Source: Actinomycetes bacterium (GTDB lineage Bacteria > Actinomycetota > Actinomycetes > Streptosporangiales > Streptosporangiaceae). Taken from it: a stretch of 57,082 nt of DNA. The position numbers were made by a program, and so were the translations under genes. Location of the stretch: positions 1-57,082 of the forward strand of contig QGUZ02000001.1 in NCBI GenBank assembly GCA_003242605.2, in the 5' to 3' direction. The notes beneath the pieces were generated by a model. That model searched no databases. It had not been told where the DNA came from and saw only the letters and a list, made by a program, of their open reading frames with translations. Positions 29,837-34,976 of this stretch are shown here, piece by piece. Each line of letters opens with the position of its first letter. The stretch's first letter is position 1.

Positions 29837-30487
29837 GTGCTGCAGGGCATCGACGTCTCGAACTGGCAGCGCCGCGTCGACTGGCGGGCGCATGCCGAGC
29901 GCGGCGTCGCCTTCGCGTTCGCCAAGGCCACCGAGGGCGACTCGTTCGTCGACCCGTGGTTCGCGCGGAACTGGGAGGGCATGCGGGAGAACTGGATCGT
30001 CCGCGGCGCGTACCACTTCGCCCGGCCGGGCGGCAAGAACCCCGAGGAGCAGGCGCTGCACTTCCTGCGCACGGTACGGCGGGCCTCCGCCGCCTCCGGC
30101 CGCCCCGGGCTGCGGCACGGCGACCTGCTCGCCCTCGACCTGGAGACGAACGACCGGCGCAAGCCGCACGAGGTGGCCCGGTTCGCCCGCCGCTGGTGCG
30201 CCGCGGTGATCGAGCGCACCGGCGTGCGCCCGTTCGTCTACACCCACTACACCTTCGCCAAGCAGGGCCACTGCGACGGGCTCGAGGTGCTGCCGCTCTG
30301 GATCGCCGCGCCCAGCCATCCCAAGGGCGAGCCGATCGTGCCCGAGCCGTGGGAGACGTGGACCATCCACCAGTACGCCAACAGCCCCATCGACCGGAAC
30401 GTCTTCCCCGGCACCCGTGCCGAGCTCATCCGGTACGGCAAGCAGCGCCGCAAGCGCCGGCGCCGCGACCGCCGCGCCGACCGGTGA
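29837..30487 (+). CDS. Glycoside hydrolase family 25 muramidase (lysozyme)
   Basis: [22 protein letters not shown] catalytic motif, LWIA, WTIHQY. Confidence 0.9.
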
Positions 30488-30543
30488 CCGGCCCGCGCCG
30501 CCCCGGTGTCGATGTATCGGACACGTGCGCGCTCCGGCGGGCG

Positions 30544-30549
30544 TATGAT
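30544..30549 (+). promoter_or_regulatory. Putative -10 box (TATGAT) of a leaderless thrS leader transcript
   Basis: TANNNT hexamer 7 nt before the leader ATG at 30557; no convincing SD. Confidence 0.55.
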
Positions 30550-30556
30550 GGGGGCC

Positions 30557-30625
30557 ATGGCGACCGCTGTCGGATTCCTGACGACCACGCCGGGCGGGTC
30601 CCGGCGGCGCGGTCGCGTGCACTGA
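30557..30625 (+). CDS. Putative thrS attenuator leader peptide [22 protein letters not shown]
   Basis: 22-aa ORF with tandem Thr codons ACG-ACC-ACG, upstream of a terminator and thrS. Confidence 0.7.
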
Positions 30626-30643
30626 GGAAGTGGCGTAGCCAAC

Positions 30644-30675
30644 GGCCCCGGGAGCGGTCCCGGGGTTTTGTTCTT
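30644..30675 (+). terminator. Intrinsic terminator (attenuator) in the thrS leader
   Basis: CCCCGGGA-GCGG-TCCCGGGG followed by TTTTGTTCTT. Confidence 0.85.
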
Positions 30676-30801
30676 CCTCGGCCCGCTCCCTCGACGGTGG
30701 AAGGAGAGGAGCGCATGGCGCCGCCGGTACCCGGTGACGACCGTGACTCGGTAGCATCTGACCCCAGCGAATCCGCCTCATCGACCAGTCAAGGAGTCCG
30801 T

Positions 30802-32766
30802 GTGTCCACCGTGTCCGAGATCCGCATCACCCTCGACGGAACCGAGCGTGCGGTGGCGGCGGGCACCACGGCCGGTGAGGCGCTCTCCGCCGATGGCCGC
30901 ACCGTGATCGCGGCCCGGGTGAACGGCCAGGCCCGCGATCTCGACCACGTGCTCGCCGACGGGGACGTCGTCGAGCCGATCGCCATCGACTCGGAGGAGG
31001 GCCGCGCGATCCTGCGGCACTCCACCGCGCACGTCCTCGCCCAGGCCGTGCAGGACCTGTTCCCCGAGGCGAAGCTGGGCATCGGCCCGCCGGTGGAGAA
31101 CGGCTTCTACTACGACTTCGACGTCGCCGAGCCGTTCACCCCGGACGATCTCAAGCGCATCGAGAAGCGCATGCGCGAGATCGTCAAGCAGGGCCAGCGG
31201 TTCCGCCGCCGCCCGGTCAGCGACGAGGAGGCGCGGCGGGAGCTCGCGGCCGAGCCGTACAAGCTGGAGCTGATCTCGCTCAAGGGCGGTGCCTCCGAGG
31301 AGGAGAGCGTCGAGGTCGGCGGGGCCGAGCTGACCATCTACGACAACGTCGACCCCGCCTCCGGTGAGGTCCGGTGGAAGGACCTGTGCCGGGGGCCGCA
31401 CGTGCCCTCCACCCGGGTGATCCCCGCCTTCAAGCTGATGCGCAGCGGCGGCGCCTACTGGCGCGGCAGCGAGAAGAACCCGCAGCTGCAGCGCATCTAC
31501 GGCACCGCGTGGGAGTCGAAGGAGCGGCAGGACGAGTACCTGCACATGCTCGAGGAGGCCGAGAAGCGCGACCACCGCAAGCTCGGCGCCGAGCTCGACC
31601 TGTTCTCCTTCCCGCCGGAGATCGGCGGCGGCCTCGCGGTCTGGCACCCCAAGGGCGGCATCACCCGCCGGGTGCTGGAGGAGTACTCGCGGCGGCGGCA
31701 CGAGCAGGCCGGGTACCAGTTCGTCGTCACCCCGCACATCTCCAAGTCGACCCTGTTCGAGATCTCCGGGCACCTGGGGTGGTACGCCGAGGGCATGTAC
31801 CCCCCGATGGAGATGGAGGGGGCGACCTACTACCCCAAGCCGATGAACTGCCCCTTCCACATCATGATCTACAAGTCGAGGGGGCGGTCCTACCGCGAGC
31901 TGCCGCTGCGCATGTTCGAGCTCGGCACCGTGTACCGGTTCGAGAAGTCGGGCGTGCTGCACGGCCTCACCCGGGCGCGGGGCTTCACCCAGGACGACTC
32001 GCACATCTTCTGCACCCCCGAGCAGCTCGCCGACGAGCTCGCCTCGCTGCTGCAGTTCGTGCTCGACCTGCTGCGCGACTACGGGCTCACCGAGTTCGAG
32101 GCCGAGCTGTCCACCCGCCCGGAGAAGTTCGTCGGCGACCCGGAGGAGTGGGAGATCGCCACCGAGGCGCTGCGGCACGCGCTGGAGAAGTCCGGCCTGC
32201 CGTACAAGGTCGCCGAGGGTGAGGGCGCCTTCTACGCCCCGAAGATCGACGTCCACATCAAGGACGCGATCGGCCGCCGCTGGCAGCTGTCCACCCTCCA
32301 GGTCGACCTGCAGATGCCGCAGCGGTTCGACCTGGAGTACCAGGCGGCCGACGGCACCCGGCGCCGGCCGTACATGATCCACCGGGCGCTGTTCGGGTCG
32401 GTCGAGCGGTTCTTCGCCATCCTGCTCGAGCACTACGCGGGCGCGCTGCCGCCGTGGCTCGCCCCGGTCCAGGTGGTCGGCATCCCGATCGCGGACGAGC
32501 ACGTGCCGCACCTGGAGCGGGTGGTGGCGAAGCTGCGCGAGAAGGGCATCCGGGCCGAGGTCGACGCGTCCGCGGACCGCATGCAGAAGAAGATCCGCAA
32601 CGCGCAGAAGCAGAAGGTCCCGTACATGCTGCTCGCGGGCGACGACGACGTGTCGAAGAACGCGGTGTCGTTCCGGTACCGCACCGGCGAGCAGAAGAAC
32701 GGCGTGCCGATCGACGAGGCGATCGCGGAGATCGTGAACGCCGTGGAGAACCGCATCCAGATCTGA
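30802..32766 (+). CDS. thrS: Threonine--tRNA ligase
   Basis: RHSTAH, DLCRGPH, RDHRKLG, KPMNCP, GEGAFY.PKID, IHRA; AAGGAG SD before the GTG at 30802. Confidence 0.98.
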
Positions 32767-34251: not shown

Positions 34252-34433
34252 CGAATCGCTCCTTCGGGTGCCTCTGCGCAGCGATTCGGAATTCTGCCGG
34301 AATCTTCCGCCCCTGTCGCCTCAGACGTCACACCCGGCGGCGGGCGCGCGGCGGGGCGGCGGCCGGAAGCGGACATCCGCACGGCGGAGACACCCTGTCC
34401 GGAACGGGGGGCGGGGGTCCTATGCTGCAAGAC

Positions 34434-34976
34434 ATGCAGGAGCCGATTGAGCAGGCCGGGGTGGGGGTGCCGGACAACTTCCAGCGCCTGTGGACGCCTC
34501 ACCGGATGGCCTACATCAGAGGGGAGAACAAGCCGACCGGCTCCGGACCGGGAGACGGCTGCCCGTTCTGCGAGATCCCGAAGATGAGCGACGAGGACGG
34601 CCTCATCCTCGCGCGCGGCAGCACCGTCTTCGCCGTCCTCAACCTGTACCCGTACAACTCGGGTCACCTGATGATCTGTCCGTACCGGCACATCGCCGAC
34701 TACGTGGAGCTGTCCGAGGCGGAGACGGCCGAGATCGCGGACTTCACCAAGCGTGCCATCCAGGCCCTCCGCAAGGCGAGCGGCGCCCAGGGCTTCAACG
34801 TCGGCCTCAACCTCGGGCAGGTCGCCGGTGCCGGGATCGCCGCCCACCTGCACCAGCACATCGTCCCGCGGTGGGGCGGCGACACGAACTTCATGCCGAT
34901 CGTCGGCCACACCCGCGTGCTTCCCCAGCTGCTCCGCGACACCCGCCGGCTCGTCGCCGAGGCCTGGCCGTCCTGA
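34434..34976 (+). CDS. HIT-family protein (Ap4A phosphorylase-like)
   Basis: RLWTPHRMAYI, CPFC, NLYPYNSGHLM, HLHQH triad; conserved position after thrS; TATGCT 7 nt upstream suggests a leaderless start. Confidence 0.92.
   Translation: MQEPIEQAGVGVPDNFQRLWTPHRMAYIRGENKPTGSGPGDGCPFCEIPKMSDEDGLILARGSTVFAVLNLYPYNSGHLMICPYRHIADYVELSEAETAEIADFTKRAIQALRKASGAQGFNVGLNLGQVAGAGIAAHLHQHIVPRWGGDTNFMPIVGHTRVLPQLLRDTRRLVAEAWPS

What the first reader, a model, noticed from the sequence alone, without database searches (positions are those of the whole stretch)
30544..30675. Unannotated Thr-rich leader peptide and complete attenuator upstream of thrS
Seen: TATGAT, then 7 nt later a 22-aa ORF (30557-30625, [22 protein letters not shown]) with three consecutive Thr codons (30581-30589). 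A 1:2 hairpin covers those codons (CGACC..CGCCGGG pairs with CCCGGCG..GGTCG). Segment 2 (TCCCGG, 30599-30604) can instead pair with the 5' arm of a strong terminator (CCGGGA, 30648-30653), which is followed by a U-tract. Established: this is the geometry of ribosome-mediated transcription attenuation (trp/thr/his type); thrS is controlled by T-boxes in Firmicutes and by translational autorepression in E. coli. Inference: a leaderless-uORF attenuator senses Thr-tRNA charging. I am not aware of this being characterised for actinomycete thrS.
Basis: partly seen in the sequence, partly recalled or inferred. Interest (0 to 1): 0.8.

Follow-up and report, generated by a model that had tools for sequence, protein, structure and literature searches.

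The report
Threonine leader switch before actinomycete thrS
A tiny conserved gene with three threonine codons and switchable RNA hairpins sits before the threonyl-tRNA synthetase gene and likely raises its expression when charged threonine tRNA runs short; a homologue is already annotated in Streptomyces, but here the element precedes the main enzyme gene and carries extra predicted helices.

Summary
Observation confirmed. The leaderless 22-codon ORF, Thr run, 1:2, 2:3 and terminator helices are at the stated places. The element is conserved: 75 leaders were parsed, and the Thr run was in frame with the leaderless start in 24 of 24 and 51 of 51 tested. It is not unknown in actinomycetes: Streptomyces lividans thrL before thrS (PMC8079986; mapped leaderless TSS, no functional test) is a homologue. 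(1) A downstream segment pairs either with the terminator loop and 3' arm (4:5) or with the Shine-Dalgarno (5:6); both show compensatory changes in 47 relatives, most of which lack a U-tract. (2) In Streptomyces-type genomes the leader precedes a short, editing-less, Thr-poor thrS2; in 21 of 21 genomes tested where it precedes the full-length thrS, no thrS2 was found. (3) thrS keeps a likely second promoter (TAGCAT, 30752) below the terminator, and the leader transcript has its own in-frame start 29 codons upstream. Thr sensing is inferred, not tested. The scan earlier noted Thr leaders before thrS in other phyla, none similar in sequence. New variant of a known kind; interest 0.4.

The parts
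30544..30549 (+). -10 box TATGAT of the leader promoter (P1); TSS predicted at 30557
   Evidence: TAnnnT + 6-7 nt + start in 75 of 75 parsed leaders; homologue's TSS mapped on the ATG in S. lividans; four RNA contigs start 30564-30569 (weak hint)
30557..30625 (+). leaderless leader ORF thrL, 22 aa, [22 protein letters not shown]
30581..30589 (+). three Thr control codons ACG ACC ACG
30560..30567 (+). 5' arm of outer protector helix (predicted to pair with 30609-30616)
   Evidence: similar helix by eye in relatives; not counted for covariation
30588..30594 (+). segment 1 (pairs with segment 2)
30599..30606 (+). segment 2 (pairs with segment 1, or with segment 3 as antiterminator)
30644..30667 (+). 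3:4 hairpin (terminator stem, loop GCGG 30654-30657), -19.5 kcal/mol
30666..30675 (+). U-rich tail TTTTGTTCTT
30676..30692 (+). segment 5: predicted to pair with 30650-30665 (4:5 hairpin, -25.6 kcal/mol) or with the SD region (5:6, -14.1)
   Evidence: covariation in thrS2-type homologues
30700..30717 (+). segment 6: SD-like GAAGGAGAGGAG and ATG 30715, in frame with thrS (29-codon extension)
30752..30757 (+). TAGCAT, likely -10 box of an internal, unattenuated thrS promoter (P2)
   Evidence: same nonamer is a mapped -10 at other S. lividans genes; no TSS data for this site
30802..32766 (+). thrS, full-length ThrRS (654 aa; TGS, editing SAD, class II core, anticodon domains), SD AAGGAG 30791-30796; only thrS found in this 78%-complete genome
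29837..30487 (+). upstream GH25 (lysozyme-family) gene; neighbour, not part of the element

Best explanation
This is a conserved leaderless leader ORF with three Thr codons and alternative RNA helices upstream of thrS that likely acts as a ribosome-mediated attenuator, turning on an extra thrS transcript when charged tRNA-Thr is scarce. Shown from sequence and comparison: the ORF, its frame, the helices and their conservation. Inferred steps: with ample Thr-tRNA the ribosome runs to the stop at 30625, masks segment 2, the 3:4 hairpin forms and transcription ends in the U-tail near 30670; any read-through RNA would pair segment 5 with the SD of ATG 30715 (5:6). When the ribosome stalls on the Thr codons, segment 1 is masked, segment 2 captures segment 3 (2:3), polymerase passes the U-tail, and segment 5 then takes over the loop and segment 4 (4:5), which would lock the open state and loosen the SD. 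Basal ThrRS would come from the internal TAGCAT promoter and GTG 30802. The element is homologous to the leader of the auxiliary editing-less thrS2 of Streptomyces and appears to have been moved in front of the main thrS in this lineage.
For: Thr run in frame with nearest leaderless start in 24 of 24 class A and 51 of 51 class B loci, over 7 and 5 different spacings. TTT in 70 of 75 leaders. All 30 best covariance-model loci in the order lie directly before a thrS, as do the 30 best in another family. 1:2 + 3:4: 98.7% paired, 5 pairs with both-side change, 0 of 500 shuffles. 2:3 forms in the minimum-energy fold of the stalled-ribosome transcript in 75 of 75 leaders, -33 kcal/mol in the window. 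4:5: 14 cells with both-side change, 0 of 500 shuffles, far above slid controls, in 47 class B rows; 3:4 + 5:6: 8 pairs with both-side change. Window loop:segment-5 duplex -18.3 against shuffle mean -11.6, 1 of 100 shuffles as good. Short ThrRS proteins hold about 1-5% Thr, mostly near 2%, against 5.5% in the genome's long ORFs, as expected of a starvation-induced enzyme. S. lividans homologue has a mapped leaderless TSS. Four RNA contigs start 7-12 nt into the leader and bridge the terminator into thrS.
Against: No experiment shows Thr dependence, here or in the S. lividans paper. The 2:3 core is nearly invariant, so it shows no covariation, and its T-A pair is kept in only 11 of 25. A U-tract of 5 or more T in 8 follows the hairpin in only 5 of 25 class A and 1 of 49 class B leaders, so intrinsic termination is not the conserved output. 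The 4:5 duplex beats shuffles in only 13 of 26 class A and 31 of 49 class B leaders; its count of covarying pairs alone is not significant (51 of 500), and relatives are not independent. The equilibrium change in SD access is small: 0.17 to 0.41 in the window for 30703-30711, none (0.80 vs 0.83) when measured at the upstream purine run; up in 11 and down in 5 of 25 class A. RNA contigs cannot show starts or ends, the four runs may be one campaign, and one RNA-labelled run has a contig across the promoter (30329-30727). No 3' end at the terminator was seen.
Confidence: 0.78

Rival explanations
1. Same Thr sensor, but the output is translation initiation (SD hidden by 5:6, followed by Rho-dependent termination or decay), and the 3:4 hairpin is only a relay, not a terminator, also in this genome.
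For: U-tract lacking in 20 of 25 class A and 48 of 49 class B leaders; 4:5 and 5:6 covary; SD access rises in 27 of 48 class B and falls in 1; the S. lividans paper found no U-tract; Cys leaderless ORFs in mycobacteria work this way (10.1101/834739). This is probably the better reading for class B.
Against: The window's genus has the best U-tails (5-6 T of 8) and a scan-positive terminator; SD hiding is weak in the window; 8 of 25 class A leaders have no extra SD-start and several lack 4:5.
Confidence: 0.12
2. The ORF senses general ribosome stalling (translation-targeting antibiotics) rather than Thr-tRNA; the codons are kept for RNA structure.
For: S. coelicolor thrS2 is WblC-activated under tetracycline (PMC7157823); GAAA lies at the WblC position in 35 of 49 class B promoters; the third Thr codon and the Pro codon are segment 1; ACG dominates all three codons (73, 65, 74 of 75).
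Against: The first two Thr codons are outside the 1:2 core yet stay Thr: 8 synonymous against 4 non-synonymous departures from ACG; the target is always a thrS; class A promoters have GAAAWY in 0 of 25.
Confidence: 0.06
3. The hairpin merely ends the GH25 transcript, or the leader is a dead relic, and thrS is driven only by the internal TAGCAT promoter.
For: Internal TAGCAT/TACCAT in 20 of 25 class A loci and in most leaderless relatives; the extra start is out of frame in 3 of 17; many relatives lack the leader.
Against: GH25 is in the locus in only 3 of 25 class A cases and precedes thrS without leader in 3 others; all parts stay intact across thrS genes only 73-82% identical; 5 of 25 class A loci have no internal TAGCAT; extra start in frame in 14 of 17 with five different lengths.
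Confidence: 0.04

Closest known systems
thrL (SLIV_19412) before thrS (SLIV_19410) of Streptomyces lividans TK24 (PMC8079986; passages, section 14 part 1 and supplement rows read)
   Same: Leaderless Thr leader ORF before a thrS; peptide has FLETTPG against FLTTTPG here and matches the class B consensus (MKR..TTP..VPAR); -10 box 7 nt before the ATG. Its upstream sequence matches the S. coelicolor thrS2 (SCO3778) ChIP primer, and the other primer matches class B leader 3' ends.
   Different: It precedes the auxiliary thrS2 (short, editing-less in the homologues examined), has a WblC-type GAAATC and no U-tract; the paper called termination unclear, gave no alternative helices and no functional test. 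Here the target is the only, full-length thrS, there is a U-tail, no WblC motif, and a likely second promoter.
Classical leader-peptide transcription attenuators: E. coli thrL (Rfam Thr_leader) and pheM-pheST (recalled); predicted Streptomyces trpS and leuS attenuators (PMC1262725, passages)
   Same: Cognate codon run, 1:2 / 2:3 / 3:4 geometry, aminoacyl-tRNA synthetase as target.
   Different: No Rfam match; leaderless start; only three control codons; two further helices 4:5 and 5:6. PMC1262725 has no mention of thrS in its main text.
Mycobacterial poly-Cys leaderless sORF translational attenuators (10.1101/834739; abstract and section 11) and ermCL-ermC
   Same: Leaderless amino-acid-sensing ORF; stalled ribosome frees a sequestered SD.
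   Different: Here the SD is reached through a relay of a terminator-like hairpin and a fifth segment, not by direct pairing with the ORF; no sequence relationship tested.
Indolmycin-responsive trpRS1 attenuator of S. coelicolor (Vecchione and Sello; recalled, not read)
   Same: Leader-peptide control of an auxiliary synthetase in an actinomycete.
   Different: Different amino acid; experimentally tested there, not here.

Membership tests
Classical ribosome-mediated transcription attenuator | Short translated leader ORF with a run of cognate codons | tested here: met
   Frame kept in 24 of 24 and 51 of 51; TTT in 70 of 75; translation itself not observed
Classical ribosome-mediated transcription attenuator | Mutually exclusive 1:2, 2:3 and 3:4 helices placed correctly against the stall site | tested here: met
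   2:3 is invariant so not shown by covariation
Classical ribosome-mediated transcription attenuator | Intrinsic terminator with U-tract | tested here: inconclusive
   Met by pattern in the window, but 5 or more T in 8 in only 5 of 25 class A and 1 of 49 class B; no 3'-end data
Classical ribosome-mediated transcription attenuator | Read-through rises when the cognate tRNA is uncharged | not testable with these tools
   needs reporter or starvation data
Actinomycete thrL (S. lividans SLIV_19412 type) | Leaderless ORF with TTP core before a thrS, homologous leader RNA | tested here: met
   Model built from window-type leaders finds thrS2-type leaders; primers and TSS row tie S. coelicolor and S. 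lividans to class B. The S. lividans DNA beyond those rows was not examined
Actinomycete thrL (S. lividans SLIV_19412 type) | Target is the auxiliary short thrS2 under a WblC-type promoter | tested here: not met
   Target is full-length; GAAAWY in 0 of 25 class A promoters
Rfam Thr_leader, T-box or any Rfam family | Covariance-model match | tested here: not met
   0 hits at gathering in the window; no relevant hit at E up to 1 in 5 loci
Translational attenuator (SD sequestration) | Conserved SD-hiding helix with a competing helix | tested here: inconclusive
   Supported in class B; weak in the window and mixed in class A

The most novel reading that the evidence does not exclude
A six-segment leader relay (1:2 + 3:4 + 5:6 off; 2:3 handing over to 4:5 on) couples Thr-tRNA sensing to both termination and SD access. 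It controls the editing-less thrS2 in Streptomyces-type genomes and has been transplanted before the housekeeping thrS in lineages without thrS2, so one gene now makes a basal ThrRS and a starvation-induced, N-terminally extended ThrRS from two promoters, with the sensor tuned to the ACG-reading tRNA.
Probability: 0.35. Interest if true: 0.6.

Novelty: new variant of a known kind. Interest (0 to 1): 0.4.

Why it matters
If true it supplies the mechanism left open for S. lividans thrL (hairpin without U-tract) and makes it testable in a model streptomycete with defined compensatory mutations. It would also show a regulatory RNA moving from a spare synthetase gene to the main one, and would predict how actinomycetes answer threonine starvation or ThrRS inhibitors such as borrelidin. 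The principle, leader-peptide attenuation, is textbook, so the gain is for specialists.

Tried and rejected
Rfam: no match. A short pattern over 201 genomes matched every genome and was useless. Weak model hits are often generic hairpins: of 9 further loci read, 4 lay before a short thrS and 5 did not, including the second hit in the own genome; L199-L205 and the weaker hits were not examined. A pattern for the exact S. lividans peptide found 0 of 151 Streptomyces-genus genomes. A mapped TSS for the housekeeping thrS of S. lividans was not found in the supplement. Searches used a wrong-frame ThrRS query; corrected from then on. Three leaders (L220, L227, L234) failed my parser and are outside the 75; L110 and L181 were left out of alignment A4. 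Thr content of full-length ThrRS differs little with or without leader (4.2% vs 4.7%). The tree is the quick one only: the leader needs 4-5 changes on it, so one gain with losses or several gains cannot be told apart, and direction of transfer is not shown. The N-terminal extensions do not resemble thrS2 N-termini by eye, so a thrS2 remnant is not supported. Lopatovskaya et al. 2010 (PMID 20198868) is not held; I recall that it lists thrS among genes with predicted attenuation but could not check the taxa, so it may anticipate part of this.

Full report
Observation. The leader folds better than 197 of 200 shuffles. The gene downstream is a full-length ThrRS, GTG 30802 to 32766, the only thrS found in this 78%-complete genome. 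Upstream lies a GH25 gene. Rfam has no match.

Conservation. Of 30 thrS loci fetched from relatives, 7 carry the leader. A covariance model from those 7 matched 57 of 150 genomes of the order; the 30 best loci all lie directly before a thrS, 16 before a full-length gene (class A) and 14 before a short gene whose match starts near residue 250 (class B). The one class B protein scanned has only the class II core and anticodon domains. A class B model matched 36 of 61 genomes of another family, and its 30 best loci again precede short thrS genes. In all, 75 leaders were parsed of 78 tried (25 A, 49 B, 1 unplaced). The Thr run is in frame with the nearest -10/start motif in 24 of 24 class A and 51 of 51 class B loci over several spacings. 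TTT is kept in 70 of 75; the codons are ACG in 73, 65 and 74 of 75, whereas ACG is 28% of Thr codons in the genome's long ORFs and 1 of 25 in thrS. Across the class few other families matched (11 and 14 of 150 genomes, many weak), so the element was found mainly in mycelial actinomycetes among those searched.

The four classical segments. In 25 class A leaders the 1:2 and 3:4 helices are 98.7% paired with 5 pairs changed on both sides, above all 500 shuffles and all slid controls. With the ribosome modelled as stalled on the Thr codons, the transcript up to segment 3 folds into an extended 2:3 antiterminator of -33 kcal/mol, and segment 2 pairs with segment 3 in 75 of 75 leaders. The 2:3 core is nearly invariant, so this is feasibility, not covariation. 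The hairpin is not the GH25 terminator: GH25 occurs in 3 of 25 class A loci and precedes a leader-free thrS in 3 other loci.

A U-tract of at least 5 T in 8 follows the hairpin in only 5 of 25 class A and 1 of 49 class B leaders; the window is one of the good cases. Downstream lies a fifth segment, 30676-30692, complementary to the hairpin loop and 3' arm (4:5, -25.6 kcal/mol) and, alternatively, to the SD before ATG 30715 (5:6, -14.1). In 47 class B leaders 4:5 shows 14 cells with both-side change (0 of 500 shuffles; number of covarying pairs 3, 51 of 500) and 3:4 plus 5:6 shows 8 such pairs. The loop:segment-5 duplex beats at least 95 of 100 shuffles in the window, in 13 of 26 class A and in 31 of 49 class B leaders. 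Predicted SD access rises in the open state in 27 of 48 class B (falls in 1) but only 11 of 25 class A (falls in 5), and modestly or not at all in the window, depending on which purines are scored. So the relay is well supported for class B and plausible here. Relatives are not independent, which inflates these controls.

Two promoters and two starts. TAGCAT at 30752-30757 lies below the terminator. The same motif precedes thrS in most relatives without leader, in 13 of 14 housekeeping thrS genes of class B genomes and in 20 of 25 class A loci; the nonamer is a mapped -10 box at other S. lividans genes, but no TSS was found for thrS itself. An extra SD and start follows the hairpin in 17 of 25 class A loci and is in frame with thrS in 14, with extensions of 28, 29, 33, 34 and 46 codons. 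I infer a basal transcript from the internal promoter and an inducible one through the leader, possibly giving a longer isoform.

Which gene carries the leader. All 21 class A genomes tested have one thrS; all 14 class B genomes tested have a full-length and a short one, and their full-length genes lack the leader (0 of 14). Short ThrRS proteins are Thr-poor, mostly near 2% against 5.5% in the window genome's long ORFs. These genomes were picked by best model score and are kin, so exclusivity is a lead. On a quick ThrRS tree the class A label needs 4-5 changes; direction and number of events are not shown. Many relatives have no leader before the full-length thrS.

Expression. In four phyllosphere RNA runs a contig starts at 30564, 30564, 30569 and 30564 with no unlaid letters and runs through the terminator into thrS, while a run of unrecorded kind continues upstream. 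This fits a start near 30557 and some read-through but is a weak hint: contigs show neither ends nor strand, the runs may be one campaign, and one RNA-labelled compost run has a contig across the promoter.

Literature. PMC8079986 (passages, section 14 part 1, supplement rows) reports thrL before thrS in S. lividans, leaderless, with a mapped TSS, one hairpin and no U-tract, termination unclear, no functional test. Its promoter row matches the S. coelicolor thrS2 (SCO3778) ChIP primer of PMC7157823 (passages and supplement rows), whose reverse primer matches 2 class B loci in full and whose core is in 45 of 49; that paper places thrS2 in the WblC regulon, and GAAA lies at the expected place in 35 of 49 class B against 2 of 25 class A promoters. 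PMC1262725 (passages) does not mention thrS. 10.1101/834739 (abstract, section 11) is the tested precedent for SD-level control by leaderless ORFs. PMC4833913, PMC10274678 and PMC4787780 (passages) added nothing specific. Ten searches of the open library showed no functional test of an actinomycete thrS leader and no description of the 4:5/5:6 helices or of a leader before the full-length gene; subscription papers are not covered and Lopatovskaya 2010 could not be read. E. coli thrL, pheM and S. coelicolor trpRS1 are recalled. Earlier scan notes describe Thr leaders before thrS in archaea, CPR bacteria, spirochaetes and others; none is similar in sequence, and they are unchecked.

Verdict. A real, conserved Thr leader that most likely works as a ribosome-mediated attenuator (0.78). 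It belongs to a family already annotated in Streptomyces, so the headline is not new; the extra helices, the second promoter and the change of target gene are the new parts and are inferred from comparison only. New variant of a known kind, interest 0.4.

Noticed in passing
window 30715-30801: In-frame 29-codon, acidic Pro/Ser-rich N-terminal extension of ThrRS from a second SD-ATG; frame kept in 14 of 17 relatives although the peptide is poorly conserved.
   Followed up: partly
class B loci L167-L180, L194-L198, L206-L235: Short ThrRS (about 400-490 aa) without TGS and editing domains, Thr-poor, often with His/Asp-rich N-terminal repeats such as MHDH; G110's copy is split into two matches.
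   Followed up: partly
L181 (G054) and L110: Leaders of the window's type (TTxPG) sit before a short thrS in distant genomes, possible intermediates between the two classes.
   Followed up: no
L025, L129, L160, L162, L164: Class A loci with no internal TAGCAT: the only thrS may depend wholly on the attenuated promoter.
   Followed up: no
window 29837-30487: GH25 lysozyme-family gene with an Arg-rich C-terminal tail and no obvious signal peptide by eye; next to thrS in 6 of the loci tested.
   Followed up: no
G000:C28:12-96 (L190): Hairpin resembling the leader's 3:4 stem directly after a tRNA-like 3' end; similar GGCCCCGGG hairpins occur as generic terminators in other genomes.
   Followed up: partly
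/data/genome.fa: ARAGORN lists tRNA-Thr TGT once and CGT twice but no GGT, although ACC is the main Thr codon; probably assembly incompleteness.
   Followed up: no
window 34422-34976: HIT-family-like ORF downstream of thrS (label from recall of the usual actinobacterial neighbourhood; not scanned).
   Followed up: no
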